Origin: Psammoneis japonica | Lineage: Eukaryota | Reading direction: 5' to 3' | NCBI GenBank assembly: GCA_008632985.1 | Contig: QPGO01000054.1 | Span: 281,050 to 345,049, forward strand | Length of the DNA: 64,000 nucleotides | In this document: piece after piece, positions 4,380 through 23,079 of the stretch | How positions within the stretch are numbered: the first letter of the stretch is position 1 | How the letters are laid out: every line of letters begins with the position of its first letter | Translations under genes and position numbers: made by a program | The notes under the pieces: model-generated | What the model was told of the DNA's origin: nothing | Database searches by the model: none | What the model saw: only the letters and a program-made list of their open reading frames with translations

Positions 4380-5115
4380 ACTCGGAGAAAGGCGATTGCA
4401 GCAAATGTCGGGTTTTGCTTTCCCACCAAAGACTTCCCCGTCGTCGGACTAAACAACGTGACCAGCTGCGTCCGCATCAACAAGAACCTGCCCGCAGTCT
4501 CCATGATTTTCGGCTGCTTCCATCAAGTCTTCACCTGACTCTGTCGACTGTGCTTGCACATCGATGATGAAAACAATGAAACAAGAGACGACTCGCTCTG
4601 CACAAGGATGAGACGCATCTGAAATGAGGGAGCTCTTCTGCCCCACATCCCACAAATGTCCGGCGTGCGAGGAGTGGTGGTCCAAACGTTGTGCTTTCAA
4701 TTCTGGGAAAAGAGATGAGTTTTGGTTGTTGTTTGGTGGCATTTTGGATTTCATTTGGCAAAAGAAAACCTGTTGAATTGTGTGCTTTGTCCTTCTTTTC
4801 ATCTTGGCTGCAGGCAAAGCAACCTCCATCCATCAGGAGCACAGGCTCAAAGCCATTGATGGTCAAACACTCTGCTCTGCCCTCAACAAGCCATCTGGAA
4901 GGATGCCTTCAGAGACAAACCTGTTGCAAGAAGCAACAGATGACAAAGACTGGGTCTGTTGCATCTGAACTTTCTCCAAGATGAGTTGGCAATCCTTCTG
5001 CAGCTGTGGGAGGCAACGGAGGGCAGAGCATCAAGGACAATCCTTTGGCCCCACTTGGCACCTCACCACAGGCCATCAAGGAGGTGGAGGCAGGCTTGCC
5101 TTGGGTCAGAGCACT

Positions 5116-5146
<31 letters not shown>

Positions 5147-5147
5147 G
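4380..5147. repeat. Copy 1 of a ~750-bp direct repeat (copy 2 at ~6003-6758), ending in a (CT)n tract; TpA-depleted
   Basis: Aligns nearly base-for-base with 6003-6758, from actcggagaaaggcgattgc to gcacttgatttct. Many differences are CG/TG/CA/TA exchanges. Confidence 0.92.
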
Positions 5148-5499
5148 AACAACAAAATCGGCGCAGCCGATTTTCCGTCAAACATGACAAACAAAGAACA
5201 AGAGCAGCTGGGGCAGAGCCACCAGTTCGGATGTTTGTCCAACCATTTCGACAAATGGCAGGCACAACAACGTTGGCCAAAGTCAGGAGTGAGACTTTCA
5301 TGGTGGCTTCATCAGCGGCCAGCTGCTGTTGTTAACGTGGTTGAGGTTCTTGTTGCGTTAAAAAGATCCAAGTGGTGGAGGACAGGCGAGTGGATTCAAT
5401 GGACTGGATTTGAGTCATTCATCGTGCTGTCTCTCTCTCTCTCTCTCTCTCTCTCGTTGGCCTCCCTGTTTGCAACCCAGCAGGACGAAACTGGGGGGC

Positions 5500-6003
5500 C
5501 GGTGGAGGTGCAAAGGACACAGTGCCAAAGGAGGTTGCTGAGGTTGCACGACCGATTGCAACAAACGATCATGCACTCCAAGCCAATGCGTTGTCAATCG
5601 TGGTTTCGAGTGTTGGCAAGTGGTTGAGAGCAGGGTGGAGAGGCCATCGTTCCTTTCCAAATCTGTTGCAATTTGCTCAATGGTGGGTTGTTTGGATGAT
5701 GTGGGACGTGCAGGAAGATGGGGGATTGGTCTGGGGCGCTTCTGCTGTTGTCGCGTTGCCCCAAAGACGGTTGCGTGCCTTTTGAAAAACGGGTTGGAGC
5801 TTGCTGGGCTTGCAGCCTCAAGCAAGCAAGCAAGTGATGGTGAAAAAGTTTCATCTTCACTTTTGTGTCGGTTGGGTCTGAGCAAAGGTTCTTGAAGCGG
5901 AAGAGCATGCCCACAATTGGGCCGGTGAGCACTCCAGGTGGGTGAGCTGAGTGTGGTGGGACATGCAGATGTAAATTCATCTCTTTCTCACAGAGAGCGG
6001 TGA
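5500..6003 (-). mobile_element. Degenerate fragment of a Penelope-like retroelement (RT C-terminal/thumb and linker region)
   Basis: Translation LCEKEMNLHLHVPPHSAHPPGVLTGPIVGMLFRFKNLCSD...FLHVPHHPNNP...MIVCCNRSCNLSNLL resembles the PLE pattern LYEK..NLYLY.P..S.HP...R...CS...HLPYHP...Y.R..NL..LL, with Tyr replaced by Cys/His. Confidence 0.65.
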
Positions 6004-6758
6004 CTCGGAGAAAGGCGATTGCAGCAAATGTCGGGTTTTGCTTTCCCACCAAAGACTTCCCCATTGTCAGACCAAACAACGTGACCAGCTGCGTCCGCAT
6101 CAACAAGAATCTGCCCGCAGCATCCATGATTTTTGGCTGCTTCCATCAAGTCTTCACCTGACTCTGTCGACTGTGCTTGCACATTGATGATGAAAACAAC
6201 GAAACAAGAGACAACTCGCTCTGCACAAGGATGAGACGCATCTGAAATGAGGGGGCTCTTCTGCCCCACATCCCACAAATGTCCGGCATGGAAGGAGTGG
6301 TGGTCCAAACGTTGTGCTTTCAATTCTGGGAAAAGTGGTGAGTTTTGGTTGTTGTTTGGTGCATTTTGGATTTCATTTGGCAAAAGAAAACCTGTTGAAT
6401 TGTGTGCTTTGTCCTTCTTTTCATCTTGGCTGCAGGCAAAGCACCATCCATCAGGAGCACAGGCTCAAAGCCATTGATGGTCAAACACTCTGCTCTCTGC
6501 CCTCAACAAGCCATCTGGAAGGATGCCTTCAGAGACAAACCTGTTGCAAGAAGCAACAGACAACAAAGACTGGGTCTGTTGCATCTGAACTTTCTCCAAG
6601 ATGAGTTGGCAATCCTTCTGCAGCTGTGGGAGGCAGTGGAGGGCAGAGCATCAAGGACAATCCTTTGGCCCCACTTGGCACCTCACCACAGGCCATCAAG
6701 GAGGTGGAGGCAGGCTTGCCTTGGGTCAGAGCACTTGATTTCTTTCTCTCTCTCTCTC
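6003..6758. repeat. Copy 2 of the ~750-bp direct repeat
   Basis: See 4380-5147; also terminates in a (CT)n run. Confidence 0.92.
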
Positions 6759-6759
6759 T

Positions 6760-9700
6760 GGAGTTGTTGAAGTTCTTGTTCAAATGTCATGCAAGCCTGG
6801 TTCTGTTCACAACAAAATCATGAATTTCAATGACACCCATGACCCAAGCAAGGAGATCACATTGAGCAAGCTGTGAGGCCACTGGAGCAAAGTCATGGCA
6901 TCTCGCAGAGGGCTGACTTGTGCTCTTGCCAACATCATCAAAGCCAGCAGTCCAATGAGATAGAGGGAACTTCTTGTCATTTCTGCTTGCAATCTTGTCT
7001 CATGACAGCTGCTTCAATTGAGCTGCAAATTGGCTCAAGAAATTCTCAGCTTTCAGTCTCAGATGCCTGCTCCCAGCAGCAGAACAGAGAGCACTCACTC
7101 AAAAGCTTTTTAGATTGTCAACAATCAGCTGGGTGCAGACAAACAACAACTTTTCACCTGGGAAATGTGCCCAACCTTTGCAGCTTGTGGGGCAGCTTCA
7201 GCTGTTGGCAGCTGCCTCAATTTTGCCACACATTGGTGCCATTGGTGTCCAAGCCTGAAGATCATCACCTGCTGCTGGAGGCCCCTCTCTGTTCTAAAGT
7301 TGGCTGGTTTGTTGCAACTCTGACACAACAGGGTGACTCATGGTGCTGGTTGGGATGCTGTGGTCAACATGAACCAAACCACTTGGCTTGAAGCCCCTGA
7401 CCTCCTGAAAGTTGTCATGAATTTTCTCCTGGAGCCAAAATGAGGAACTGTGCTTAGATTGCCAATGCACTTGCAATGCTTTGCCCAAGTGAGATTGTGG
7501 GCTGGAGGAGTGAAGTGAAGTCATCCAGGACTTGTCAAGAATGGGCTTGGATGTCCGCTCCAAATGTGTGGCTTTTGGCAGCTCTGGGTGAATCAGAAAC
7601 TGTGTGCTTGAGCAAAAGCAGGTTTAGGCACAAGCATGCACAAAGATCCAGAAGAGTTTTTTGTGGACATTTTGAGCCAACAGGCAAACAAGTGGACCAC
7701 GCCATTTGTGCATCCAATGCTGCCCAAAGCACTGGCACCACACATGGCTGGCACCATGCTGCAGAGCACCAGCCATGCTGTGGTGGAAGTGGTTGGATTT
7801 GGACAAAAAGCAAGTGGCTCATCCACACACAATTTCTGAAGAGGAAACCAAAGATTCATCTCAAGCGCACCTCTGGTGTGGCAAATGCAGCACAACTCAG
7901 TGCCCTTTTGCTGGATCCTTGTTGTGTCAAAGTCCTGTTTGTGTTGTTCACTGTGCATGATGACTGCCATTCTTGCAGAGTCAATGCACAGAGAAGACTT
8001 GGCCAGCTTGGCTTGATTCTGATTTTTGACAACATTCATGCTCTGTTGCCTCTCATGGGAACACACGGCTGGGGAAACCTGTCAGGCAGCTGTGGAGCAG
8101 ATGCCAAGTGGCACCCATGGACCAGGTGTGCAGAGTGGTTGGGCTTTTAACCTTTGTTTCCTCCTTGCCATCATCCTTGCATGAGTGCAACCCTGAGAGT
8201 GCCCTCAGAGCTCAGCACTTGTTGAGGCTGGGCTGTTGCACAATTTTTGTGGTGGAAACTGCAGCAGCTGTTGTTGGAGACAGCTGCTCCCACCAAGTGC
8301 AGAGGCAAGCACAAATTTGTTTTGTCTGGCAGCTGGTGACAAAGTTTGGCTGAACAGACCACAGCTTCAGCCCACTTTGCTGGCTTCCACAGGCAAAACG
8401 AATGGCTCTTGCCTTGCAGACTGTGACTTGCAAGCTGTGCTGGGTTGTTTTTGAGTGGGTCCTCCCATGAAAACAAGTGTTTTTTTTGTCATTCAGACTT
8501 GCTGGGCTGTGTTCAAAAGAGGACATTGTCATTGACAAGCTGTGCTGTGGCCGCTGGCAGTCCCCAAACTGCATTTGGCCTCTGTTGGGGGAGCTTTGCA
8601 AAAGAAATCCAAAAATTTTTCATTTGCCTTTTGGGAAGTTCTGGGGAGACAGGCTGGCAAGGATCATGCATGCAAGGATCATGCAAGTGGCAGCCCCTCA
8701 AATTTTGTTGACTTCAAATGTTTCTCTGTGGCCCGTGACACTGAGCATTGAGAGTGAGCTGTTGAGGGTGACCAACTGATGAGTGGAACAAACAAAGGAG
8801 GTCATGTTGATCCACTGCAGCATCACCCATCCCTCACCTGTGGTGGGGCCTGACAGCTGATGAACTGTGCTGCCATGGTCACTGAGGTTCTTCTGATGGC
8901 ATTGTGCAGCCATTGTGCTCAAGCAGCGCTGGATGTGAGGACAATGATTTTGATTTGCTGTCAGCTCCACGTGCTCTCAAAAGATCTCTGTTGGTGCAGC
9001 AGCAATTTCTGGGAATGGCAAAAGCATTGACAGACAAGACCATTTTTGGACATCTCTGTTGGGCATTCCAAGTGATCTTTGAAATGCCTCACAGGCCACT
9101 TGGCAATTGCCGCAGCACCACTTGTGTGCCTCCTCATGGAACCCCAGGTGTTTGCAGCTGATGGAGCTCCTTGGGTGCTCGCTTGTCAGACATTTTTTTC
9201 TCAAAATCATCCAGCACGTGCTTTGCAAATTTGGAACTGTGAATTGCTGCATTGCACATCATGGACTCTTTGGTGCAGCTGGGCACCATCTTCGTCAGGT
9301 GCACATGGCAGCCCACCAGCCTGACCACACAGTCCTTTGCAGTGAACTCAGCATCATGCACATGTTGGGGTTGTCTTTTCCTTGCACAGCAAAAAATCAG
9401 CCTTTTTCTTTTTTCTGTCCTTTTGTTCCTCCTCTTGGATGGAGTTGATGTTGGACATGATGATGTCCATGTGCACCAGCCATTGCAAGAGGTTGCTGAG
9501 GGGCAAAGTGATGGATCAAGTCATTTTTGTCACAGCATCACATTGGTGCTTCACATGACATGCCACCAACTCCACCGTTGATGAGAAGCTGTGTGGAGAC
9601 CATGGCGCTGCTTGGAAATCTGTGGAGATTTGCTCCTCCTCACTTGTCCTCATGGCACAGATGTTGTCTTTTGCTCAAATTCTTGCCCCAGTTGAGACTC

Positions 9701-9970
9701 CAAGAGCCAACAGATGAACTTGATTTCCCTGCTTGGCACCGTCAATGATGGGCCGACCACCTTGCTTCTTGGCAGGTGGGCACAGCTTCCAAGAAGCCCT
9801 TGCAACATGCTGGTGCTGGAGACACCTCCTTTGCATGCTGCTTCTTCAAGCTGTCAAATGCAATGGACATGACTTGCACCAAATTTTGTTCTTCTCATCA
9901 ATTTTGCAAACTGAGCAATGTGTGTTTCCCGCCAGAGAAACTCGAAGACCTCTGCTTCTCTCATCAGCAC
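6760..9970. mobile_element. Heavily degenerate, unidentified repeat/TE-derived DNA depleted of both TpA and CpG; host of the copia insertion, continuing at 17089-~18050
   Basis: No credible ORF and extreme TA/CG scarcity. The copia TSD shows that 9970 and 17089 were contiguous. Family not recognisable. Confidence 0.45.
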
Positions 9971-10246
9971 TGACAGAAATTGAAGGCAAATGGCAAGAAC
10001 TCAAACAACAACTCCTTGCTGCTGTCTAAATGGCAGATGAGTCTCTGCTCAGAGACCGTCACAGGAGCCGAAAGACGTGTGAGTTGGTACAATCAGGCTG
10101 CTGTTGTCATTCTTGTGAGCCTTGTGGCTCGAAAGCAAACTACATCGCGCGCGAACGCGCAGAACTAAAGCACACAAAACTGTGCGCGGCAAACCAAACA
10201 GCGCGCGACATTTCGCGCACACCCAAATCCTGTTTAAATCCTGTCA
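9971..10246 (-). repeat. 3' LTR of the copia element
   Basis: TG...CA ends; preceded on the minus strand by a purine-rich tract (AAACTGGGGAG, 10247-10257); about 23 substitutions relative to the other LTR. Confidence 0.95.
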
Positions 10247-10259
10247 CTCCCCAGTTTGC

Positions 10260-13200
10260 TTGATGAGTCACAGAAACAGATTCGACTTCGGATGGAATGA
10301 AGTTCCAGAACATGAGGGGGCGGAGAAGGTCCCAGATTTGGGAGCAACCCCAATGCTTGCTGAGAATGTCAGCAGGGTTGCGGGAGCCTTCGATGAAGTG
10401 GAACTCAAGGCAACCAGAGGCAATTGCCTCACGCACACGGTGGAACGACAATGCGGTGTGTCGCTTGTGTAACTTGGAGTGCGGGATGGTGGCACTGTCT
10501 ACAACCGACTTGTTGTCACCGAACATGTAACTGACATTGTGGATCGGGATGCCAAGGTGGCGCAGGGTGATGCGCAGATCGACAATCTGCTCGACACAAG
10601 TCCTTGCGGCAACAAATTCAGACCCGCAGGTCACAGTCTCCACGGTGGCTTGCTTCTTAGAGAACCAATCAGCCGGGAATTTGTTGAGGAAGTGGAGCAT
10701 TGCCATGACAGAGCGTCCGGTGAGCATGCAATGGCACAAGTTTGCATCGACGTAGTGGGTGGCAGTGACGAACTTGCCAAGGGGCGGTGGAGCGTCCTTC
10801 GGGATCATCTCTTCTGCTTCGCCATGCATGGAATGCATCCATTCATGGGCCGGAGCAGGGAGATCCAAAGAGTCGGGCTCTTCAGCACGAACGCGGAGAG
10901 CGCCGTGTCGCATCTTGGAGAGGTAGCCACAGACGCATTTGGCACGGTCCAAGTGGCCTTGACGGGGCACAGCTCGGAAGCTGGAGAGTGACATGACAGC
11001 CGTGGTGATGTCAATTCGACCAAGGGACACTGCCCACTGGAGTGAACCAACAAGAGACTGGAACTTGTGAATGCCATCGGGCCCCAGCAGTTCGGAAGTG
11101 TCCAGTTCGGGGTGGTCACCCTTCTCCAGAGGTGACAGGGCATTGGTGGTGGGTTTCTCCCCAAACAGTCAGGCGCAGCTGTCAACCATGCGCTTGATGT
11201 GCTTGCGCAGAGACAGGTGCAAGGTTCCGTCGGGATCCCGGGAAAAGTCGCAACCCAGATGGAACTCAATGGGTCCCGCACCCTTGAGCTTGAACTTGCA
11301 CTTTTCCGTGAGAGCATCGACGAAGGATTGAGGGTCCTTCACAGCAATGGCGAGGTCGTCCACACAAACGGCAATGCATTCACAGTGGTCGCCGTTCCTG
11401 CGCATCCAAATGTTGGGTTCGGCGCGGCAGGGGAAGAATCCTTCAGCTCGCAGGCAGTCGGCGAAGCGCTCGTGCCAGCGAAGACCAGAGCTGCGCAGTC
11501 CACACAGGGCCTTGTGGATGACAAGGATGTGTCCCTCGAGTTTGCCAAATTCGGGTCCGGCTACAATGTAGAGCTTCTCCTTGGTGGTGGCTTCAAGGCA
11601 GGCATTGCCAATGTCGGTGGCCCATGTCTCTAACTCGTTGAGTTCGGCCAGGAAAATCATCAGCCGAAGGCCACGGAGGGAGACCACTCCAGAGCAGACA
11701 CTGTCGACAGGTGCGTCCGTGAGGTGCCCATCGGCTACGAGTCGTGCCTTGTGGCGACCGTCGTGTTTCACGTTTCACACTGGGTGCACTCGGATCTTCT
11801 TGTGTCCCGCAGGAGGAGTGGAAGACTCAAAGGGCCTGCAGTTGTGGAAGACTTGGCATTCCTCGAGTTGATCCATCTCGAGGTTAGTTGCGTCTCCCCA
11901 TTTGCGGTTGCCGTTGCGTTCGTCTAGTGACATGGCGTGTTTGCAGTTCCGGGGAACTTCGCATCCGTACTTGCAGCGAGGTGCAGTGCGGAAGGAGCGA
12001 AGCTTGGCTTGGTTGGCCATGCGAAATGGCTTCTTTTGGCGCCTCGCGATGGTGCAGAACCGCTTCCAGCCATCAGTGTCGAGAAGTCCATTCTCTCGTG
12101 CATAGATGGCGCAGGTGACGGGGTCGTCCTTGGCAATGATGGCAAGAGGCTCGGACGTGATCTCCCCACTTTCCCATTCAAGCATGATGTTGTAGCTTGA
12201 GCCTTTCCAGGTTGGGTCATGAGGCTTCAGAGGTCCTTCGTGTGACACGATGCGTCGAAATTTCCAAACAGCAGTGTCTTCGTCTTCTTGCTCAATGTGA
12301 TTCATGATGTCGTTGCAGGCAAGGACTTCCTCGCATTCGTCGTTGTTGACAGAGCAGACGAACTTAGTGAGCTCAGGATTGCCGTTCACTTTCCATTCGT
12401 GGTCTTCGACGGCCTTGACGATGCGAGCTCTGTGGCGTTGTCCGTCCTCTTGTGGCTGCATGAGGAAGGTGCGTCTGATGATGTCTTGCGGATCGAAAAC
12501 TGGCATCTTGGGTGTCCTGATCTCCCCATCAGGAGAGTCAACGGGGTTGTCGTCATGGCAAGATTTGATGATGGGTTCAGGTGGCTCCCCATCAGGAGGA
12601 TCAAGACGCAGGTTTCGAACGGCAGGATTGGTGGCAGCGGAGCATGCGTTGGACCGGCAGAGGATCTTCTGAGTCTCGTCAGAGAGAATCTTGAAGGTCA
12701 TCTGGTGGCCGACGTGCTCAGCAATGCCAACAAAGCGTCCACGCAACTCACGGGATTCGGACGGCCAATCGGAGTCATCGAGGTGGAAGCACACGGGTTC
12801 CCACCAGTGAAAGCGAAGCAATGGGCTGATGTCCGGGGTGGAGCCAGCAAGAGTCTCGAGGGGTGTGCGCCAGTGGAGACGTGGGGATGCTGCATGGTTG
12901 AGTGTGAAGCACACATGCATGAGCGCCAGCAGCCATGTGTGGGCGGGCGAACCAAAACGATCCATGACAGTGTTCACCATGCGCTTCACGGTCTGGTGTC
13001 GACGCTCGGCAAAGTTTTGGTGTTGCTGGTGAGGCTCACTTTGCCAGCTGGAGATGAAGAGGGCTCGTAGGATCCCGAGCACCTTGTTGCTGATCTCAAC
13101 TTGAGCACGGTCGCCAATGAGTTTGGATGGGGCACCACGCTCACGGATCTGATCCTCGAGTGTGTTGACAAACTCCTTGTCCGTCTTGGTGCCGCAGACG

Positions 13201-15863
13201 TCAGTGACGGTAGACTCGGTGCCAACAAACAGTTGGGTGCTGGTGCAGCCAGAGTCGACGGCCGGGGTGTCAGCACAAACTGTGTCAGTGGCGACAGGCT
13301 TGTTGCGGCGGTGCACATTAAGGGCGGGGTTGGGTGATTTGCAGGCCTTCCTAAGGTGTGCACCGGCGGGCATGCGGGCGTGCTGCGTGGTGCAGTCAAA
13401 AGCACGACGGACCGCATCGGCAGGCAGGAAGCCAAAGCAAGGCCGAAGAGACTCGAAGGGGGGGTCCTTGGGTTGCACAGTGCGCTCCGGGGGCAGGACG
13501 TCGTCGTCCTTGGGGTCAATCGCGTGTAGATGACACTCGTAGAACACGTCGTCGTTCGGAATGAGGTGATCATCAAGGGCTGACGCGTGATCGGCAGACA
13601 AGGAAGCGGACATGATGGTCTCGTTGACAACGACACGATGACGGCAGTTGCCGCATTCGTCAAATGGGTTGGCAGTGGGATCGTCCTGCAGGTCAGAGAT
13701 CGCGTCGCACCACTGGTCGTCGTCAGTGACAGAGTGATCGAGGACGGAAGGATCCCATGTGTCATCACCGGTGAGGATGACATGGGGCAGGGTGTCCCAT
13801 TCGGCGTCAGTGCAAGGTCGCATGGCAACATGAGGCAGGCCACCCTTGATGTCAATGGGGATGACACAGCCATCAGGGGTGGCAGTGCGTTGCAAGCCGT
13901 TGGGCACCTTGACAGAGTGATCGTTGACATCCTGTTTGTACCATTCGAGCTGGCCGCAGGAATGAATGGTCTTGCCCTTGCCCATGCATGCGTGCTGATG
14001 GAGGATGGCGATGACGGGACCACGCTGGGTCTCAATGACGGCACCAGCGGTGACAATGGGGATGTCCACCAATTGGTGGTCGTCAATGCCCTGAACGTCG
14101 ACTTGGCGAGAGGTGCGTGCAATGACGCGAACGTCGTCACCAGCAATGCCGCCGTTGGCCCCACGATCGACTAGAGCACCAGTGCGTGTGGAGCGATGAG
14201 CAGAGGCAGAGCAAATGACATTGTGGTCATTGACGCGGCGGCAAGTGCGGCCGTTGAGTTCCATGTCATCGGCAGGAGCTGGCGGAGTAGAGGGAGCGGC
14301 AGATGGCCCCGGTCGACTGGCATTGGGGGCTTGGTTAGGAGACAACAGACGTTGTAGATCACCGGGTGGCAGTGGCTTGCGCTTGGTGAGGTGCGCCAGG
14401 ATGGGATCATCCGGAGTGGCACCCACATTTGGAGCGGGGTCACCAGAGTCAGCAGGAGTCGTGTTGGACAAGTTGACATCACCGTCACTCCCAAGGCGTT
14501 GGTCGTGAAGGTTGGCCGTAACAGACTCATGGTGGTTGCTGGCTCGCGGGTTGCGGGGAGGCGGACGAGAATGCTCAAGGATGATCGCCTTGGAGAAATG
14601 GGGCAACGAATCCCAAATCCGCTGGTGGTCGGGAGGGAGACGTTTCCATTGGTCACTGGTGAGGCTGGGACCACGGGTGCAGGCAGCATTGGCCTGAAGG
14701 ACGTCAATGTCACTGTCAATGTCGCAGAACACATCGTCGGACGGTTCCTCGGAGCAGACGTCGTGTGCGTGTGTGGCACGTCGGGGAGCTCGAGGTGTCG
14801 TCTTGGGTTGAAACGCACTGTCGCATTGAGCCGCCACGGAGAGAAGCAGGCCACAGCATTGATCGCATGTGAGGCTCTTGCCACTCTGCGTGCGATGCTG
14901 ATCAGCTTGGTTCTTGACAGCACGAAGTTCCTCGACAGGGTGTGCGGCATTCTCGAGCATGACGCGCTTCTGTCCTTCAGAGAAGTGGTCACTGGCCGGG
15001 ATGAGTGCCTCGCACTTGCGCAACTGATCTTGCCAATGAAGGATGAACCCGTGGGTCGGACCTTTCCAAGTGCCATCACCAAGACGTGCGGTGGTGAGGT
15101 GCGTGAGCAAGGTGGAGGTCTCGACAGATGCGCGGGTGGAGGCGAGCGCACACTCAGACAAGGCGCGGCAGACGGTCTGAGTGTCAGAAGACCCCACATT
15201 TTCGCGAATGAGAGCCTTGCCCTTGTCGGTGAGAAGAATGCGTTCGAAGACGGCGAACATGCACTTTTGCTGTTCAGCAAAGAGCAGTTTGTCTTCGGGG
15301 CTGGTCAGTTTGTACGACGAGTCTAGAATGCACTCGACGTCTTGGGCACGGGCTTGTGCCACAAGTGAGGTGTGCCAAGTGTGCCACTGCTTGTCGGATT
15401 TGAGAGCCATGAAAGCGGTGGGGTCACGCTTGATGCCTCGCTTGAAGTCTCGCACCGGGTCGCGTGCCTTGGTCGGGTTGGTGACATGCGGAGGTGCGAG
15501 GGGTGAGCTGCCGATGGACACAGAAGACATGCAGTCGGGGCTGAGGCGGCAGGCAAGGAACTCGTCATGCGTGAACAATGAGGAGTCATTGGCAACGTCA
15601 AGACCTTCGTGTGCTTTGACAATGTGCAGACTGATTAGAGCTGCTAACACGTTCTTATAGCCGCGGGGCAAAGGGATCACATTAGCGCCGTTGTCGCACT
15701 CAAGCGAGTCGATTTGGGATGGTGTGAACGTGAACAGTTCTTGACACAAGTCCGTGCCGTCTTGGGTCAAAGCCAAACAAAGAGGGCTCCCAGCACCTTG
15801 GGCAAGCACGGTTCCAACAACGTGCTCGAAACCATCGGTTTGTTGCTGACGAGTGAGAACCAT
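10260..15863 (-). pseudogene. Copia gag-pol polyprotein in a single frame with two in-frame stops (11775-11777, 11169-11171) and mutated catalytic motifs
   Basis: Protease LVDRGANGG; integrase VATDTV, SEPHQQHQNFAERR; RT KHDGRHKARLVADG, DIGNACLEA, CVDDL; RNase H YVDANL, GSEFVAAR, FGDNKSV, NPADILSK. The three track ORFs (11775-15893, 11169-11771, 10140-11030) share one frame; the original stop position is uncertain. Confidence 0.93.
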
Positions 15864-16807
15864 GGCAGACAAAAGTGGTGTCAGGACAAGCAATTCTTGT
15901 TGGGAAGTGAAGGCAGTGAAGGCAGACTTGAAACTTGGGTGAGAACAGACTTGACTTGAAATGGACTTGACTTGAAATCTTGAACTGCCTTAAAATCAGA
16001 AGTCGCCGGGCTTTGCTGTCCCGTTCGTTGTCAAGTGCTAAACTTCCTATCCGGTCCGTAGAGTTGTGCCGGCACGTCCGCACCCGCAGCCAGTGGCGCT
16101 TTGGGTTGCTTACGAGTGGAGCAGCGGGTTGTAAACCCCTGCAGGCAAGCTGACTGGAGGTGGACAAGACCCCCGAACCGTTCTCATTTTACATCGGTTG
16201 GATTTCCCGATCAGGCTGGCCAGTTGACGCAGGCGTCAGGCGCTGTGGACGAACGAACAAACACGGGAAAACACCCTCGCCCCAACGTAGGCTGCAATCA
16301 CGGCTGCTTGCTCTCACAGTCATCCTCGTGGACCTGGCAGAACTGTGGAGCACCAGCAGTCTGGGGCAGATCAGGTGCAATGGACTCGGCGTGCTTGTAG
16401 AGTGGCAGCAAAGCCGCAGTCCAAAGAGTGGGTTCAAGTCCTTGGCCGTGAAGATGTGCACACACACATGTCTTCAGCGACGGAGATCCTTGAATGTGTG
16501 GGGTTCTTGACCGTTAACCGTTGAATGGGTGCATCAAGGGATGAGGATCAAGGGTGGACTTGGATGTGACCGTTGATGCATGTCTTCAGCGATCAAAGGC
16601 AGTGTGATCAATCCAGATGTCCAGCGGCAAGGAGACTTGACGGTGACGTTAACTTCCTGCCGATGCCTGGCATTGAATGCGCGTGGACTTGCCGATGCAT
16701 GTAGAACACACACGGAGGTCCACGCAGAGTTGAGGTGGCGTCGTCGGTAAATCAACGACGACGATGGCGGTTGCTCAATGGGTTGACAATGAGCAAGACT
16801 GTTGATC

Positions 16808-17083
16808 TGACAGAAATTGAAGGCAAATGGCAAGAATTCAAACAATGACTCCTTGCTGCTGTCTAAATGGCAGATGAGTCTCCGCTCAGAGACCGTCACA
16901 GGAGCTGAAAGACGTGCAAGTCGGTGTGATCGGGCCACTGTTGTTGTTCTTGTGAGCCTTGTGGCTCGAAAGCAAACTACATCGCGCGCGAACGCGCGGA
17001 ACCAAAGCACACAAAACTGTGCGCGGTAAACCAAACAGCGCGCGACATTTCGCGCGCACCTGAATCCTGTTCAAATCCTGTCA
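16808..17083 (-). repeat. 5' LTR of the copia element
   Basis: Colinear, indel-free match to 9971-10246; flanked by TSD AGCAC. Confidence 0.95.
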
Positions 17084-18031
17084 AGCACAGGACATGGCAC
17101 ACACAGCAAAACTGTCTTCCTTCCTTGTTGGAGCTTGCAAGACCAAATGACATTTTGTTCTTGCTGCAGGCAGCAGTTGTCAAGCGACTGCTGATCTTGC
17201 CATTGACGCGAGTGAACAAACGACAGCTCATGACGCCTGCATGCAGCCACCACCCATCTGCCCAGCACGGCCTTCACTTGGAGAAAGCAGCCAGCAGCCA
17301 GCAGAGAAAACTCTCTCTAGAGAGAGCAGAGGCCCCTCGAGTGGAGAAAACTCTCCAATGGAGCAGAGGCCCCTTTACATGCTCGAGCTGCAGTGCTCGC
17401 ACGCAGCAGGCAGCACTGCAGTGCTGCAGCAGTCGCACCTGTGACAGTGTCTGTCCATGACACGTTGGTTGTCTGGGCTGCTGCAGGCTGTAGATTTCGG
17501 ATTTCCAGATTTCGATCAACACTCTGGGGGAAGATGACTCCAGCCAGTTTCTGGCTGAAAAACGTCTGCTCGTCAGTGCGTTTGGGGGTTTTGCCAGTGC
17601 AATTTTTGTGTGCGCAAAAGACGTCGAGTCTGTCCAGCGCTCGCCAAAGCCCCCCAACGCACAGATTGACAGACTTTTTCAGTGCAAATTCTACACAAGA
17701 TTCTTCAGCCAGCAGCCACGAGACCCAGGCCTTGAGCAAATCCAAACTGGCGAGGCAGGCGCGCTCCGGATTAGCCCCACTCGGGCAAAAAATGGAGCCA
17801 CTCAGTGGCTCGCAACTTGCGCAGCGTAAAACTCGCAACTGACACAACAAAGCAGCACCCACACAGATGCAACCTTTTAACAGAGGCAAAAAGCCATTGT
17901 TGTCAATGCATTGTGTTGTCAGCCGCCACTCGTGTGTGGAGCTCGGTCGCCGTCAAATCACCGTCATGGTCGTTGGCGGTGATTTTCTCACCCCATGGAA
18001 ACAACCGCAGGGCAGTGCCAGAAAAAAATGT

Positions 18032-18433
18032 CGAACCATTGGGCAGTTCGCTGCGTAGACAAGTGCCGGGAGCCCCGTAGAATTGGTGAACCATGAGGTG
18101 GTTCGGGAGGACGAGCGTAGAAACATGCGTGGTAATTTGCACCAGAGGGTCGAATGCAAAATTGAACCAGAAAAATGAGGCTCACGATGAACAAGACGGC
18201 AGCAGTACGGAGAAGTTTAAGAACATAGTAAACCACTAAAATAAAGCATACTTATTGTCAAACAGACGTTGCTGTATCGACTGATGTAATGTTATTGTAG
18301 ATGTCTCATCATCTTTTACACTTTTACCCATCGTCTATCGGTTCGTTTTTGGCTTGCCGCGAACCACTTGATGGTTCGGGGCAGGAATCGCGCGCATTCG
18401 TGAGTTCGCGCGGCGAACCACTGCATGGTTCGC
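18032..18433. repeat. Four spaced palindromes GAACCA-N5-TGGTTC
   Basis: 18033-18049 (right arm CAGTTC), 18088-18104, 18361-18377 and 18415-18431, each with a 5-nt spacer. Confidence 0.75.
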
Positions 18434-19930
18434 GCTGGGAGTGGGGTTAGCGTACAGACCATCACCGCGGTGACAACACGGAGAATTTGTCAAAAACCCG
18501 CCGGAGCCGACGATGACATTGACGCGGTAGATAAGGTGTCTAAACATTCGTCGTTTTTTGGACCATTACAACAGAAGCTCTATTAGACCCTCATAGATAT
18601 ACGGTTGTAATCATCCATTCGGAGACGTCCATTTTGGTGAGAAATATTGAAACATACCGTTTCGCTTTGTTGTGACGCGATGACACGTGCCGATTCTTCA
18701 TACGCCCGCTACCAACCGGATTTCCAGCACCAGCTGTGTTGAACTCCGACTTTATAAAAAGGCAAGTAAATAAAAATCAAAATGGTGTTATCAATGTGTC
18801 CAAGGCTCACCAGTTGTTGTCTCACTCAACTCTCTTGCCTCCGCAGCCAATTCTTGTTGTCTTTCTAGAGCATGAGCACATCGACGAATCCAACATCGTC
18901 GTCACATCGTCAAACCCATTTGAGCAATGGTATTGACTAGACGAATATTTTTAAGACGTTGATAAAGCAACTGTAATGCATTCAGCCAAGTATTCTTAAA
19001 TGGGAGAGAGTCGGGCGGATGGGAGTTAAAATGCAGAATGAAGTTGGCGTGCGGTTCAAGAAAAAAGCATTCAAACAACGTTGACAATATTATTCTGATG
19101 CTGCTATTCTATAGAATGATAAATAGTAGTGAATAGAGCTCATCCCTGGCTCGCATCTGCTGTAGATTCATCGCAAAGTTGCAAATGTCAAATGTGAAAA
19201 CAGAAGTGTGTTGCTTGCACTGAGTTTTTATGGATTACTTGGCCTGTCTATAGCATGAAAGAGGTCAAATATAGTTGTCACGAGGCCAGCCATGGATTAG
19301 AGAATAGAATATAGCCATGAAATAGGTCTTGTGTTGATGTCATCATCTAATCTCGGTGTCGAGAAAGGGTCAATTTCCCTTCACGTACGGTGAGTCACGT
19401 GTCTTGAATCCCGTATGACCCACTCGACTCGAATTTTTTGGAAGAATTAGCTAGACTTTGACCCCCGCTAGAGCCACAAAATACACAAGATATGAGCATT
19501 ATCGGTCTCATACTCTTTAAACCGATGTCTTGCAAGAATGTAATAGGTATGTATTGTTCATGGTATCTGGCATTTCAAAATAGAACTAACTTTTCGTGGA
19601 GCACCTTTATTACACGGGAAAGTGCGAGAGTCAACATTCAGTGATTGGCAAGTAACTAACGTTCACCCCCATTCTAGGCCCCCAAAAGTGTCGTGAACTT
19701 CGTATCTGTATACTGTTAGTCGATCGAGGTGGGTATTTGGTTAAAAACGGGGGGTTAATTTTTACACGTGGCATCATGGAGCTGGGACGGAAAGCAGCTG
19801 GCTGGAGACTTCCCCCAACTCAACGCGAGCGAGGAGCGAGACACAATAATGATGAGCATAGCCGGTCGGAGATTGAGAAAATTGAGATAGCTGTGCGAAT
19901 CTTATCGCGTACACAACCTGATGATCCAGT

Positions 19931-21016
19931 ATGAACCAGTTTAGGACGATATCACTGTTTGCTCTTTTGTGTACAATGGTATTTTCAATTGCAAGAGCCT
20001 TTGTGTTTTGTGGGAATAATCGACAAGCTGTTCAGAATCAGCATCGTTGTTCAGCACGGCAGTCACTGCGATGGCACACCAACATAAGATCCACCCTGAC
20101 GACAAGAATCAGAAGTAAGCAAAGTATTGGGATACCCTAGGGTTTGAATATATCTGTCTGTCGCTCTAACATTTCGTTGCCTTCGCGGTTAAATCTTTGT
20201 GATACTTATTATTCAGCTGTGCGGTACCAAACTCCATACACAATCAACGATAGTATTTGTCCACCGACCGATCGAGATGTGCTTCGCAGTGTCGTTTCCA
20301 AACACGTTGAAACCTTGGATCGGTATACAAGTCAAAAGCCGATTGCGGCTCACACGATGGAATCGTTTCAAGCCGTCAAGGAATGGATGGAGCAATCTAC
20401 GGGTAAACTCGAGGGAATCATTATGGACAGTGGGTGTGGGACGGCAAAATCCACTCTAGTCTTGGGCAAGCGGTATCCGAACCATTTTGTGATTGGAATT
20501 GACAAGTCGCTTGCGAGGCTCAGTCGTAATGAGCATTTTGAAGCTGACGATACTACTACTACTCCAGCGGCGATACAACGTGTATCGGGTTCACCCAATG
20601 TTGTCTTGGTCCGGGCCGAGTTGTCTGACTTTTGGAGATGCTGTGTCAATCACCAATGGACCTTGGATAAGCATTATCTGTTGTATCCTAATCCTTATCC
20701 TAAAAAGGCTCGACTCAAGAGCCGTTGGTACGCGCATCCAGCCATGCCTCTGATTTTAAAACTCGGTGGCGATATTATCGTTCGATCCAATTGGGAAGGA
20801 TTTCTGCAAGAGTTTGCGCTGTCCATCCAATACGCAAGTGACACAATACAAGATGGTGATGAGAATTATGCACAACCGTATGTTCAATCCTTGCCAAGAG
20901 AGCCTGTTCCATTGTCCAAGAGCGATACAGCGAAAGTTCCGTGGACCAATTTTGAAAAGAAGTACATTGATTGCGGTGAACCAATCTACGAACTGCAAGT
21001 CCCTGTTGCTAGATAA
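19931..21016 (+). CDS. trmB: TrmB-like tRNA (guanine-N7)-methyltransferase, probably organelle-targeted; one intron (~20114-20216)
   Basis: Signal-peptide-like N-terminus ending ARAF; DSGCGT, IGIDKS, LYPNPYPKK..KSRW, VRSNW, TNFEKKY motifs. Confidence 0.8.
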
Positions 21017-21261
21017 AAAAGAAATACTTTGTATTGCCTGAACAGAGTTCACTCTAAACCAGGAAAGGCGAGTATGTAGAGGAAAGATGTGTTACTGATT
21101 CACTTCGCTCCAGGGCTGTACGTTTGAACCGACACGGTTGGACACATCTGCAAGGATTTCAACGTCTAACTTCACAATATCAGATTGCATGAGTAGCAAG
21201 GCTTTCGTAGAACACATTGAATAGCTATACAGTTCTGAGGCGGAGCACAGGTAGAAGAGAT

Positions 21262-23079
21262 TCATTCTGCATTATTTTCTCCGTCTTCTATTTCCGCCGG
21301 CTCGTCTTCACCAGTCGCGTTCGTTGCAGATTTTTGTTCTTCATTAGATGTAGCTTCGACAACCCTTCTTTGAGACTTCTTGGTCTTGTCCGCAGCATAG
21401 AATCGTTCAGACTCAAGCTTTCGGAAACTCTCTAGCTTCTCTGGGACCAGCCCCGTGGGTGTATGTTGGGAAGCAGCTTGCGACCAATATGACTTGAGCT
21501 TGCTGAATTCAGCATCACCAGGAGGCGGTAACACGGCAGGCTCCTCATCATCTGAAGGGCGCGTGACGACCGAGCCACGAAACTTCTTCGTCGTCGTTAA
21601 GGTAGGCGATGATTCCGGAGCTCCAGGCTCATTGTTTTTGTTTTCCTCATCAGTGGGGAGTGCATTTTTCAACAACGAAGGAACCTCAGTATCAACTGTT
21701 GTTTCCGATTCGTCTTTTGCTGTGGTTGAGATATCGGAAATATTGACTGCATCGTTAGCATCTGCTGACTCATTATGAATATCTGGTCGTCGACTATCTG
21801 CGACATCGTCAATGTGATTCGTGTCCTTTTTGTTTCCATCTCCTTCTTTGTTGTCGCGTTTCTCCGCTTCGTTCGCAGTCATAACTTCTCCTCGGTCGGC
21901 TTGAAGAATAGAAGAAGGAGTTGACCTCTCAGCTTGCATGTTTTCTTGCGCAGGCTCGACGTCACCGCCAGGACGTGAATCATCTAACAGATTGATCGCC
22001 TCAACAGTGACCACATCTTCTGCTCCACTACCGCGAGAGGCGCTTTTACTATTCTCGGGCTCCGTTACAGAGTAGTGGATGAGCAAACGGTCTAGTTGTT
22101 GGGTGCACAATGAGCCGTCCTCTCCTTTGGGACTTGATCCAGCAACGTCCTTTACTCTTGCAGCTCTCTCAGCTTGAAAGTTCCCCTTTCTCACCTTGCT
22201 TGTCTGAAAAGCGCTTCGTACATCAATAGCCAATACTTCTTCAATACAGAGCAGGACATTTTCTACAGTATCGTGAACAGATTCATCTCCTCTATGCGGC
22301 CCGTAAAATTCCAGACACCTGGGTTTCTCGTCCAAAATGTGTTCCAACTCCTCTTTGGCTTTTGATGTTACGACTACATGTCGACTGGTGGACAACCCAC
22401 TCTGAACCCATGGGGGGACTTTTGGCGGTGTGCCTTCAACCGAGTCATAATGTGGAACGTATGGCTTTATATCCAAAACTGGTGTTCCGTCTACCAGATC
22501 AAGACCCGAAACTTCGAGATACGTCTTTCTGCAATGCTTGGTGGGTTTCGTAACGGAGTTCAATTGGCAGAGTGTCATTCCAATAGGATTTGGGCGATGC
22601 GGTGATCGTGTGGTCAATACACCCACCTTTTCACCTCCCAAAGCGGGCGGCGCAATCTTGCTTAGCTTGTTCTTGGATACCGTGTTGAGATGAAAGCAAA
22701 ACACAACCCAAACATGAGAATATTCTTCCAAGCCCAATACGGAATCCGGTTCCACTGAAAGTTCGATCCGTCCTCGTGCGTGTGGTGCTAGCAATCCTTG
22801 CCGGGGTGTTCCTACACATAAGCGGTAAATTGAATGAACAACTCCAATGGGCTTTACCACGAGCCCGTCCTCAAACAAATCGAATTCCTCATCCAGTGTA
22901 ACTCGTCGTCTGAGCTTCTTGGCGGCTTCTTCGTTATCTGATTTATCTCCCGAATCCGCGGAAGTTGGCTGAAGCTTTGATGAAGCCAACTGGGCGGTTT
23001 TTGTCTTTACGAGGGAGCAAGCTGCAGCTGTTGCAGAAGCCAGCAAGGAAGCCGTATGAGGCATTGCTGACGATGACAT
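21262..23079 (-). CDS. TRMO: TsaA/TrmO tRNA m6t6A37 methyltransferase with a long acidic low-complexity tail
   Basis: PIGVVHS..GTPRQG, GLEEYSHVWVVFCFH, GVLTTRSPHRPNPIGMT, GLDLVDGTPVLDIKPY. Confidence 0.92.
   Translation of the reverse strand: MSSSAMPHTASLLASATAAACSLVKTKTAQLASSKLQPTSADSGDKSDNEEAAKKLRRRVTLDEEFDLFEDGLVVKPIGVVHSIYRLCVGTPRQGLLAPHARGRIELSVEPDSVLGLEEYSHVWVVFCFHLNTVSKNKLSKIAPPALGGEKVGVLTTRSPHRPNPIGMTLCQLNSVTKPTKHCRKTYLEVSGLDLVDGTPVLDIKPYVPHYDSVEGTPPKVPPWVQSGLSTSRHVVVTSKAKEELEHILDEKPRCLEFYGPHRGDESVHDTVENVLLCIEEVLAIDVRSAFQTSKVRKGNFQAERAARVKDVAGSSPKGEDGSLCTQQLDRLLIHYSVTEPENSKSASRGSGAEDVVTVEAINLLDDSRPGGDVEPAQENMQAERSTPSSILQADRGEVMTANEAEKRDNKEGDGNKKDTNHIDDVADSRRPDIHNESADANDAVNISDISTTAKDESETTVDTEVPSLLKNALPTDEENKNNEPGAPESSPTLTTTKKFRGSVVTRPSDDEEPAVLPPPGDAEFSKLKSYWSQAASQHTPTGLVPEKLESFRKLESERFYAADKTKKSQRRVVEATSNEEQKSATNATGEDEPAEIEDGENNAE

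What the first reader, a model, noticed from the sequence alone, without database searches (positions are those of the whole stretch)
8150..10026. About 1.9 kb without a single TA; nested ages suggest TpA loss outpaces CpG loss
SEEN: no TA dinucleotide between 8150 and 10026 in DNA that is about half A+T, and CG is rare too. The younger copia inserted into this DNA has lost most TA but is still CG-rich. INFERENCE: the TpA process approaches saturation sooner than 5mC deamination, so it is probably a separate, faster mechanism rather than a by-product. The end state is TG/CA-rich DNA whose origin is unrecognisable.
Basis: partly seen in the sequence, partly recalled or inferred. Interest (0 to 1): 0.75.

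Follow-up and report, generated by a model that had tools for sequence, protein, structure and literature searches.

The report
TpA-erasing hypermutation of diatom transposons
In this diatom-like genome, transposon DNA (but not the neighbouring genes) has had nearly every TA dinucleotide turned into TG or CA by a process that acts after insertion and runs much faster than ordinary CpG decay, the same odd mutational signature reported in 2026 for an unrelated alga.

Summary
Window 8150-10026 has 0 TA where composition predicts 120, and it is the longest of many TA-free gaps. These lie in two sharply bounded repeat islands, about 4.4-18.05 kb and 42.04-50.45 kb. There TpA o/e is 0.03-0.16, against 0.61 in genes.

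The direction of change can be read. The Ty1/copia at 9971-17083 keeps Tyr at only 5 of 38 conserved Tyr positions. The rest are 22 Cys (TAY>TGY), 7 His (TAY>CAY) and 4 Phe. 119 homologues keep 3824 of 4138.

The change happened after insertion. The element has an intact 5-bp target duplication, and its two LTRs differ at 23 sites, all transitions, 22 of them at TA/CG<->TG/CA. Six sites read CA in one LTR and TG in the other.

Per site, TpA loss is about 0.76 and CpG loss about 0.15. An equal-rate model is rejected (P 1.3e-6). The matched codon test gives Tyr-TA 29 lost of 34 and Arg-CG 2 lost of 54.

The signature matches a 2026 preprint on Bigelowiella natans. I found no diatom report. The enzyme, possibly a DNA adenine deaminase, is inferred only.

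The parts
8149..10027 (.). Longest TA-free run (1879-bp gap between the TA at 8148 and the TA at 10027). Its last 57 bp lie in the copia 5' LTR.
   Evidence: gap list, dinucleotide counts; 120 TA expected, 2000 shuffles never below 93.
6760..9970 (.). Old, unidentifiable, single-copy DNA at the mutational end state: TA o/e 0.03, CG o/e 0.10, TG/CA o/e 1.83. The copia inserted into it.
   Evidence: counts. (no Pfam hit in any ORF of this stretch). (ORF 7458-8147: 0 hits). (no similarity to the copia family). (depth about 63-69, like the genic flanks).
9971..17083 (-). Dead Ty1/copia LTR retrotransposon. LTRs 9971-10246 and 16808-17083 (TG..CA ends, 91.7 % identical). Target-site duplication AGCAC at 9966-9970 and 17084-17088. 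Polyprotein frame 15989-10140 with 2 internal stops. TA o/e 0.165, CG o/e 0.86, GC 56 %.
   Evidence: LTRs, TSD. (RVT_2 PF07727, E 2.6e-24, in 11169-11774). (790 homologues, best 60 % identity). (Tyr>Cys/His; Arg CGN kept).
17089..18050 (.). Right flank of the copia insertion site: TA-poor (7 TA, o/e 0.14) but still CG-rich (o/e 0.64). TA density returns to the genic level from about 18056.
   Evidence: No Pfam hit in its 8 ORFs.
4380..6759 (.). Repeat unit with 760-bp direct-repeat arms (4380-5139 and 6003-6759, 96.2 % identical), with no TG..CA ends, ending in (CT)n. TA o/e 0.03, CG o/e 0.45. It forms the left edge of island 1 (last dense TA at 4352).
   Evidence: In the run it is repeated about 5-18x single-copy depth.
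42042..50452 (.). Second island at the end state: 18 TA (o/e 0.035), 43 CG (o/e 0.083), TG/CA o/e 1.79. It contains a decayed ~193-bp tandem array (about 44.7-47.0 kb). The right edge is sharp for both TA and CG (50445-50453). On the left, TA stops at 42041 and CG at 42311.
   Evidence: No Pfam hit in its 44 ORFs.
18051..41916 (.). Genic control block between the islands: TA o/e 0.61, CG o/e 0.97.
   Evidence: Gene content.

Best explanation
The repeat DNA of this genome undergoes a context-specific transition hypermutation that turns TpA into TpG or CpA (A:T>G:C at TpA). By its genes, the host is a diatom, closest to raphid pennates.

The process acts on chromosomal DNA after insertion. It is confined to transposon or heterochromatin-like domains, with edges sharp to within about 100-400 bp. 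It is highly specific for TpA and is about ten times more complete where the TA is flanked by A on the 5' side or T on the 3' side (ATA/TAT).

It runs roughly 9-50 times faster per site than the CpG>TpG/CpA decay in the same element, and perhaps two to three orders of magnitude faster than background substitution. That last figure is rough, because it rests on a single background substitution in the LTR pair.

CpG decay, attributed to 5mC deamination because diatom LTR elements are CpG-methylated, follows more slowly and unevenly. Together the two processes drive repeats to TG/CA-rich DNA that has no TA, almost no CG and only TGA stops, and whose origin cannot be recognised.

Shown here: the signature, its direction, its post-insertion timing, its confinement to repeats, its rate relative to CpG, and its absence from relatives elsewhere.

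Inferred only: that the agent is a targeted enzyme, most plausibly a DNA adenine deaminase of the tRNA-A34 (ADAT2/TadA) kind, whose natural substrate is also preceded by U. It would be directed to silenced or foreign DNA as a genome defence.
For: Direction. At 38 alignment columns where Tyr is at least 80 % conserved in 45 full-length homologues, the window copia has Y 5, C 22, H 7 and F 4. It keeps 632 of 706 other conserved residues, and the homologues keep 24-37 of 35-38 Tyr. Pooled over 119 homologues: 3824 Y, 8 C and 47 H of 4138 (Fisher P 2e-31). Of 107 changed conserved positions, 66 are explained by a single transition: 41 TA>TG/CA, 20 CG>TG/CA and 5 other. The remaining 41 are not single transitions.

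Post-insertion timing. There are 23 LTR-LTR substitutions, all transitions, and 22 fall in the TA/CG<->TG/CA class. Six sites are CA in one LTR and TG in the other, where only 0.23 such sites are expected from CpG. The intact TSD AGCAC argues against a recombinant element.

Consistency. LTR-based TpA loss (0.76) equals the interior Tyr-codon loss (29/38 = 0.76), so essentially all the loss can be post-insertion.

Composition against relatives. TA is 6.5 per kb in the coding region, against a mean of 48.9 (minimum 30.3) in 61 relatives. GC is 0.569 against a maximum of 0.534.

Confinement. The per-kb profile and the TA/CG position lists show genes at TA o/e 0.6 right up to the island edges.

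Flank preference. Relative to 45 relatives, survival of TA is 2.7 % with one A(-1) or T(+1) flank, 0 % with both and 23.5 % with neither. Among all 84 island survivors, A at -1 is 6 % (genic 30 %) and T at +1 is 5 % (genic 28 %).

Precedent. In Bigelowiella natans mutation-accumulation lines, 230 of 231 substitutions in two integrated viral regions were A>G or T>C. The A>G/T>C changes all fell on TpA, at about 6e-7 per site per generation, and TpA-depleted coding sequences were enriched for RT and DDE domains (bioRxiv 10.64898/2026.01.13.699255; abstract, Results and Discussion read).
Against: The rate comparison rests on one element and 12 informative TA sites in a 277-bp LTR, so the confidence interval is wide (2.6-36).

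The Tyr/Arg and LTR estimates of CpG loss differ (3.7 % against 14.6 %).

The methylation state of the copia is unknown, so slow CpG decay could reflect weak methylation and not a slow process.

TpA is self-complementary, so the mutated base (A or T) cannot be assigned. No deaminase or other candidate gene could be sought, because no whole genome is held.

The TAT/ATA preference does not match what I recall of ADAR (3' G) or TadA (UACG) preferences.

The 760-bp repeat arms (4380-5139 and 6003-6759) differ mostly at CpG (9 sites) and hardly at TA (2 sites). This fits only if they were already TA-poor when duplicated, which is an added assumption.

A 1.8-kb host-gene duplication also shows many TA<->TG/CA differences (16 of 78 TA sites). 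Targeting may therefore be less strictly transposon-specific than the islands suggest, or duplicated DNA as such may be a target.

The Cys:His asymmetry (22:7) is unexplained.
Confidence: 0.85

Rival explanations
1. RNA-level editing before integration. The retrotransposon's RNA is A-to-I edited at UA (ADAR- or ADAT-like), and the changes are fixed by reverse transcription.
For: RNA editors of metazoans prefer a 5' U (stated in the Discussion of the preprint). Tyr>Cys (A>G on the sense strand) outnumbers Tyr>His 22 to 7 (binomial P 0.008).
Against: Sister LTRs, copied from one template, differ at 10 TA-derived dinucleotide sites, 6 of them with both products. Both TG and CA products occur. The effect also covers DNA with no sign of being a retroelement, namely a tandem array and old single-copy DNA. 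The Cys and His sites are not clustered (runs test P 0.92).
Confidence: 0.04
2. By-product of cytosine methylation and CpG decay, or of general GC-biased repair or gene conversion in silenced chromatin. No separate TpA process would then exist.
For: TA-depleted and CG-depleted domains coincide at the right edge of island 2, within 10 bp. Both processes end in TG/CA.
Against: TpA loss is near complete where CpG o/e is still 0.86 (copia), 0.64 (right flank) and 0.45 (4380-6759). The equal-rate model is rejected. In 80 relatives from other hosts CpG o/e goes down to 0.03 with TpA o/e at or above 0.47 and no Tyr>Cys/His signature. Only 1 of the 23 LTR substitutions lies outside the TA/CG contexts, so there is no general AT>GC drift.
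Confidence: 0.05
3. Native composition or selection. These repeat families are intrinsically TA-poor, for example by adaptation of active elements, and were not mutated in place.
For: The 760-bp repeat arms seem to have been TA-poor already when duplicated. The copia family is very abundant in the run (13299 contig pieces laid; summed depth 65,000-135,000 against about 60), so some TA-poor copies may have been copied further.
Against: 29 of 38 conserved Tyr positions are replaced by Cys or His, and there are 2 in-frame stops. This marks a dead copy and not an adapted one. The LTR differences show loss in place. Relatives have 30-78 TA per kb against 6.5 here.
Confidence: 0.03
4. Sequencing or assembly artefact, with systematic miscalling of a modified base at TpA in heavily modified repeat DNA.
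For: Base modifications can bias long-read base calling (general knowledge, not tested here). The sequencing technology behind the window is unknown.
Against: A 2551-nt contig of a public run, at single-copy k-mer depth 63, reproduces 6714-9264 with 9 differences, and none of the 8 of them listed in the table creates a TA. Products are split between TG and CA at homologous LTR sites. The surviving TA sites follow a flank rule. The run is probably from the same sample, so this support is not fully independent.
Confidence: 0.02

Closest known systems
TpA hypermutation of integrated viral DNA in Bigelowiella natans (Mettrop et al., bioRxiv 10.64898/2026.01.13.699255; abstract, Results and Discussion read)
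   Same: Same signature: almost exclusively A>G/T>C at TpA, giving TpG/CpA. It is confined to foreign or selfish DNA. TpA-depleted, CpA+TpG-enriched clusters occur, and RT and DDE domains are enriched among TpA-depleted coding sequences. The rate is orders of magnitude above background.
   Different: The host here is a diatom (stramenopile), not a chlorarachniophyte (rhizarian). The targets seen are an LTR retrotransposon, a tandem array and unidentifiable repeats, not giant-virus or virophage inserts. The process has run to saturation here (TpA o/e 0.03, kilobases with no TA), whereas the B. natans viral region is at Rho 0.45. This window also shows the relation to CpG decay and an ATA/TAT flank preference. 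CpG is absent from the preprint's main text (term search), and the sections I read give no flank preference. De novo events were observed there and only inferred here.
Repeat-induced point mutation (RIP) of fungi
   Same: A DNA-level, post-insertion, dinucleotide-specific transition hypermutation that destroys repeats and changes their base composition.
   Different: The chemistry and direction are opposite. RIP is C>T, mainly at CpA, and so creates TpA and AT-rich DNA (as described in the preprint's Discussion, and in RIP papers seen only in search listings). Here TpA is destroyed and GC rises (0.57 against at most 0.53 in relatives). Dependence on duplication and on a sexual cycle was not testable.
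CpG decay by 5-methylcytosine deamination in methylated transposons
   Same: It also operates in these islands (CG o/e 0.08-0.10 in old parts; 6 CG<->TG/CA differences between the LTRs) and ends in TG/CA. LTR retrotransposons are CpG-methylated in the diatom Phaeodactylum (PMC2806351, passages read).
   Different: It cannot remove TpA. Here it is 9-50 times slower per site and uneven between segments. In relatives elsewhere it occurs without TpA loss.
Deaminase editing of retroelements in animals (APOBEC on cDNA, ADAR on dsRNA)
   Same: Nucleic-acid deamination that riddles selfish elements with transitions. ADARs favour a 5' U (preprint Discussion).
   Different: Those act before or during integration, are strand-specific and are often clustered. 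Here the changes arise after integration, on both strands, unclustered, and in non-retroelement DNA too.

Membership tests
TpA>TpG/CpA hypermutation of foreign DNA (B. natans type) | Substitutions almost exclusively A:T>G:C transitions falling on TpA | tested here: met
   LTR pair: 23 of 23 substitutions are transitions, and 16 of them lie at the 10 TA-derived dinucleotide sites. At conserved Tyr positions, 29 of 38 are now Cys or His. Polarised single transitions at conserved residues: 41 TA-type, 20 CG-type, 5 other.
TpA>TpG/CpA hypermutation of foreign DNA (B. natans type) | TpA depletion coupled to CpA+TpG enrichment in clustered windows | tested here: met
   Two islands of about 13.7 and 8.4 kb with TA o/e 0.03-0.16 and TG/CA o/e 1.45-1.83, against 0.61 and 1.12-1.17 in genes.
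TpA>TpG/CpA hypermutation of foreign DNA (B. natans type) | Restricted to foreign or selfish DNA, with host genes spared | tested here: met
   The island edges coincide with repeat ends (4352/4380; about 18050; 42041; 50453), and the adjacent genes are at the normal TA level. Caveat: a host-gene duplication shows raised, unpolarised TA-site divergence.
TpA>TpG/CpA hypermutation of foreign DNA (B. natans type) | Observed de novo, at about 1e-7 to 1e-6 per site per generation, in some lines only | not testable with these tools
   Only contigs of one sample were available. There are no time series or mutation-accumulation lines.
TpA>TpG/CpA hypermutation of foreign DNA (B. natans type) | Same effector enzyme (unknown; an ADAT2-like candidate is proposed in the preprint) | not testable with these tools
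   No whole genome is held for the window. None of the 21 large ORFs scanned in the window has a deaminase domain.
Fungal RIP | C>T at CpA, giving TpA enrichment and AT-rich repeats | tested here: not met
   TpA is erased, not enriched. GC of the copia is 0.57, above all 61 relatives (maximum 0.534).
5mC-driven CpG decay | CG>TG/CA as the cause of the TG/CA excess | tested here: inconclusive
   It is present (CG o/e 0.08-0.10 in old DNA; 6 LTR differences) but cannot account for the TA loss, which precedes it in the intermediate segments: the copia, 4380-6759, 17089-18050 and 42042-42311 (position lists). Methylation itself was not measurable.
Ty1/copia LTR retrotransposon (for 9971-17083) | Paired LTRs with TG..CA ends, a 5-bp target duplication, and an RVT_2-type RT downstream of the integrase region | tested here: met
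   LTRs 276 bp long, TGACAG...CTGTCA, 91.7 % identical. TSD AGCAC. PF07727 E 2.6e-24. 790 homologues, and those listed carry PF07727 with one exception. Pfam rve was not detected at E 1e-4 in the 1404-aa ORF.

The most novel reading that the evidence does not exclude
Some diatoms possess a dedicated, chromatin- or RNA-guided DNA editing defence, a kind of reverse RIP. It deaminates adenine at TpA, best at TAT, in silenced transposons, viruses and perhaps any duplicated DNA. It works independently of cytosine methylation. It is shared, by descent or by transfer, with the chlorarachniophyte Bigelowiella. Because only some hosts of this copia family show the signature, the enzyme could be found by comparing genomes with and without it.
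Probability: 0.35. Interest if true: 0.85.

Novelty: new member of a known kind. Interest (0 to 1): 0.72.

Why it matters
A programmed A:T>G:C mutator aimed at selfish DNA would be a new class of eukaryotic genome defence beside RIP, cytosine methylation and APOBEC/ADAR editing. So far it rests on a single 2026 preprint in one alga.

Finding the same signature, run to completion, in a diatom has four consequences.

- It places the process in a second, ecologically dominant lineage.
- It shows its long-term end state: unrecognisable DNA that is TG/CA-rich, has no TA, and has almost only TGA stops.
- It gives internal clocks (LTR pairs, and Tyr against Arg codons) that separate the process from CpG decay.
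- It offers a presence/absence contrast among related hosts that could identify the enzyme. A natural double-strand-context DNA adenine editor would also interest people who build base editors.

There are practical consequences too. Such DNA yields long spurious ORFs on both strands. It escapes homology-based repeat annotation. It makes LTR-divergence dating badly wrong if TA sites are not masked.

Tried and rejected
- Whole-genome analysis: no genome is held for this window.
- Identity of the old DNA: 0 of 83 ORFs of at least 90 aa from the old island parts hit Pfam at E 0.01. tblastn with 120 copia homologues gave 124 matches, all inside the copia. The longest old ORF (7458-8147) had 0 hits in 1.84 billion proteins. 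Self-BLAST found no similarity between island 1 and island 2.
- Protein Atlas on the TrhO-like gene gave only bacterial clusters and was of no use for taxonomy.
- Sequencing runs: no RNA holder is listed, so nothing can be said on expression. Only contigs, not reads, could be laid. Table 3 showed 40 of 550 differing places, chosen by support. The window-against-other-copies spectrum by context is therefore biased, and I did not use it for rates.
- Polarising the host-gene duplication: the TA<->TG/CA differences are symmetric between the copies (6 against 9), so no direction could be assigned.
- Strand-coordinated clustering of Cys/His sites: none.
- Whole-element TG against CA excess as a test of strand bias: increments of about +9.5 and +8.6 per kb over the mean of relatives. 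This is too noisy to interpret, because the relatives differ in CpG decay.
- Earlier findings of this scan: nothing relevant.
- Literature: six searches looked for TpA or TA-dinucleotide hypermutation of repeats, diatoms included. A seventh covered Phaeodactylum copia elements. Term look-ups were made in two diatom TE papers. Only the B. natans preprint turned up. Its supplementary tables were not read.
Full report
**Observation**

The window has 1840 TA dinucleotides (o/e 0.45), spread very unevenly. The longest gap runs from the TA at 8148 to the TA at 10027, 1879 bp. At the genic TA frequency of the window (4.16 %) the probability is 10^-34.6.

The per-kb profile and the position lists show that this run is part of two islands, about 4380-18050 and 42042-50452. 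The genic blocks around them have TA o/e 0.60-0.62 and CG o/e 0.97-1.04. TA density changes over 100-400 bp at the edges. The last dense TA on the left is at 4352, where a repeat starts at 4380. Normal density resumes at 18056, stops at 42041 and resumes at 50453.

**What the pieces are**

Self-BLAST and alignment define a Ty1/copia element at 9971-17083.
- It has 276-bp LTRs (TGACAG...CTGTCA, 91.7 % identical).
- It has a perfect 5-bp target-site duplication, AGCAC, on both sides.
- Its polyprotein frame on the minus strand (15989-10140) has two internal stops.
- Pfam RVT_2 hits at E 2.6e-24, and it has 790 database homologues of up to 60 % identity.

| Segment | TA o/e | CG o/e |
|---|---|---|
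| Copia (9971-17083) | 0.165 | 0.86 |
| Left host DNA (6760-9970) | 0.03 | 0.10 |
| Right flank of the same site (17089-18050) | 0.14 | 0.64 |
| Repeat with 760-bp arms (4380-6759) | 0.03 | 0.45 |
| Island 2 (42042-50452) | 0.035 | 0.083 |

No segment of this window is CG-poor yet TA-normal.

The old parts are unidentifiable.
- 0 of 83 ORFs hit Pfam.
- tblastn with the copia family gave no hit outside the element.
- The longest old ORF had 0 hits among 1.84 billion proteins.

Host genes put the organism among diatoms. They include a fucoxanthin/chlorophyll-binding-type gene, plastid DUF2499/DUF3593 genes, PPR proteins and actin. The best named hits of an APH-family protein are Nitzschia, Cylindrotheca, Pseudo-nitzschia and Fistulifera at 51-56 % identity. 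The best hit of all, 65 %, is unnamed. Five exact protein look-ups found nothing.

**Direction of the change**

Tyr is encoded only by TAY, so conserved tyrosines are a natural polarity test. I aligned the copia polyprotein with 45 full-length homologues.
- At the 38 columns where Tyr is at least 80 % conserved, the window copy has Tyr 5, Cys 22 (TGY), His 7 (CAY) and Phe 4.
- It keeps 632 of 706 other conserved residues (0.895), which is within the homologues' range of 0.88-0.98.
- The 45 homologues keep 24-37 of 35-38 tyrosines.
- Pooled over 119 homologues, 3824 of 4138 are Tyr, 8 Cys and 47 His.
- Only one public protein, P0193, shows a partial version (6 Cys, 5 His).
- None of the 80 metagenomic DNA relatives shows it.

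Of the 107 changed conserved positions, 66 are explained by a single transition: 41 of TA>TG/CA type, 20 of CG>TG/CA type and 5 other. The remaining 41 are not single transitions.

Against 61 relatives the coding region has 6.5 TA per kb, where they have a mean of 48.9 and a minimum of 30.3. Its GC is 0.569, above their maximum of 0.534. The change is therefore TA>TG and TA>CA, that is A:T>G:C.

**Timing**

The two LTRs of one element are identical at integration (established retrotransposon biology). The matching target duplication argues against a recombinant between two elements.
- The LTRs differ by 23 substitutions, all transitions, and 22 are in the TA/CG<->TG/CA class.
- Six sites read CA in one LTR and TG in the other. 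Four more keep TA in one LTR. Two TA are intact in both.
- For CG, 16 are intact in both and 6 are changed in one.
- CpG decay at the observed rate would give only 0.23 CA/TG double sites.
- Assigning the doubles to TA is better by 11.7 log-likelihood units.

The process therefore acts on integrated DNA. The LTR-based loss of 0.76 (0.57-0.89) equals the interior Tyr-codon loss (29/38), so pre-insertion editing need not be invoked. The Cys and His sites are not clustered.

**Rate relative to CpG**

- From the LTR pair, per-copy CpG loss is 0.146 (0.06-0.28). The rate ratio is about 9 (2.6-36), and a common rate is rejected (LRT 23.4, P 1.3e-6).
- From matched codon positions, Tyr-TA is 29 lost and 5 kept, and Arg-CGN is 2 lost and 52 kept (Fisher P 7e-16). 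This gives a rate ratio of about 50.
- Only one of the 23 LTR substitutions lies outside these contexts. This suggests a TpA rate two to three orders of magnitude above background, but the figure rests on a single event.
- In the 80 relatives from other hosts, CpG o/e ranges from 0.03 to 1.19 while TpA o/e stays at 0.47-0.99. L080, for example, has TA o/e 0.67 and CG o/e 0.03. CpG decay therefore does not entail TpA loss.

Three caveats apply: only one element is informative, methylation was not measured, and the two CpG estimates disagree.

**Flank preference and asymmetry**

Among the 84 TAs surviving in the islands, A at -1 is 6 % (genic 30 %) and T at +1 is 5 % (genic 28 %). Relative to 45 little-mutated relatives, survival in the copia is 23.5 % for TA with neither flank, 2.7 % with one and 0 % with both. 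The best target is therefore ATA/TAT.

Cys outnumbers His 22 to 7 (P 0.008). A 3'-pyrimidine preference or a strand bias could each explain this, and I could not separate them.

**Independent check of the sequence**

Contigs of a public run, probably of the source sample, cover 6714-9264 at single-copy depth (63) with 9 differences. None of the 8 of these listed in the table creates a TA.

The copia family is very abundant there. 13299 pieces were laid, with summed depth of 65,000-135,000 against about 60. Of 534 differing places, 446 are transitions. No RNA run was listed, so nothing can be said about expression.

**Comparison with what is known**

One paper in the searchable library describes this signature: Mettrop et al. 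2026 (bioRxiv 10.64898/2026.01.13.699255; abstract, Results and Discussion read).
- In Bigelowiella natans mutation-accumulation lines, 230 of 231 substitutions in an integrated giant-virus region and a virophage region were A>G or T>C.
- The A>G/T>C changes all fell on TpA, at about 6e-7 per site per generation.
- TpA-depleted coding sequences were enriched for RT and DDE domains.
- The authors propose an ADAT2-like DNA adenine deaminase.
- A term search of the main text found neither 'diatom' nor 'CpG'.

Six searches on TpA or TA-dinucleotide hypermutation of repeats, diatoms included, and a seventh on Phaeodactylum copia elements, found no report of this in diatoms or elsewhere. Term look-ups in two diatom transposon papers found none either. 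One of those papers states that Phaeodactylum LTR elements are CpG-methylated.

Fungal RIP is the nearest established system in logic. It is opposite in chemistry, since it makes TpA and AT-rich DNA. That defining feature is not met here.

**Mechanism**

Shown:
- a TpA-specific A:T>G:C transition process;
- acting on integrated DNA of repeats;
- with sharp domain edges and an ATA/TAT preference;
- much faster than CpG decay;
- absent from relatives of the same element family in most other hosts.

Inferred: the agent is an enzyme directed to silenced or foreign chromatin, most plausibly an adenine deaminase acting on DNA.
- The tRNA-A34 deaminases that the preprint names as candidates act on an A preceded by the invariant U33. 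That point is my recollection of tRNA biology.
- TpA is its own complement, so a thymine-side mechanism cannot be excluded.
- No genome was available in which to look for the gene.

**Verdict**

The finding is a new member of a kind described only months ago. It lies in a different major lineage, has run to saturation, and carries internal clocks that separate it from CpG decay.

Noticed in passing
25108-26918 and 28807-30641: A 1.8-kb duplication of host genes (ankyrin-repeat gene plus a DUF2499 plastid-type gene), 94 % identical. The second ankyrin copy is split into 96- and 156-aa ORFs. Of 60 substitutions, 29 are in the TA/CG<->TG/CA class: 16 of 78 TA sites and 12 of 99 CG sites differ. 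The differences are symmetric between the copies, so no direction could be assigned. This may be low-level action of the TpA process on duplicated host DNA.
   Followed up: partly
4380-5139 and 6003-6759: 760-bp direct-repeat arms (96.2 % identical) around an 863-bp middle, with no TG..CA ends, ending in a (CT)n tract. Their differences are mostly at CpG (9 sites) and hardly at TA (2 sites), and only one TA is left. The unit was therefore already TA-poor when it was copied, which means TA-erased DNA can still be duplicated.
   Followed up: partly
P0193 (public protein): The only one of 120 copia homologues with a partial Tyr>Cys/His signature (6 Cys and 5 His at 38 conserved Tyr positions). 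It is a lead to a second host with the same process. Its DNA could not be fetched.
   Followed up: partly
6760-9970, 42042-50452: TA-erased DNA has almost only TGA stops (165 TGA against 11 TAA+TAG over both strands in 6760-9970; 400 against 25 in island 2). Long open frames therefore appear on both strands (for example 230, 296 and 297 aa) and could be miscalled as genes.
   Followed up: yes
44700-47030: A decayed tandem array with a period of about 193 bp (copies about 70 % identical) inside island 2, also TA-free.
   Followed up: partly
42001-43000 and 49001-50000: Strongly purine-rich plus strand (GC skew 0.38-0.43, AT skew 0.30) at both ends of island 2. Unexplained.
   Followed up: no
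3000-3370 and 21154-21481: A dispersed repeat about 370 bp long (83 % identical) in otherwise genic DNA, with normal TA content (12 shared TA).
   Followed up: no
20141-21016, 21262-23163, 58089-59219, 60910-63543: Four genes with tRNA-modification domains lie in one 64-kb window: Methyltransf_4, TrmO_N, a TrhO-like UPF0176/rhodanese gene, and Trm732/THADA. This is probably coincidence.
   Followed up: no
9971-17083 in run X1: The copia family is extremely abundant in the public run: 13299 contig pieces at 90 % identity or more, with summed depth about 1000-2000 times the single-copy depth. One contig joins 10208 to 17050, which could be a solo LTR or a collapsed LTR in the contig assembly.
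   Followed up: partly
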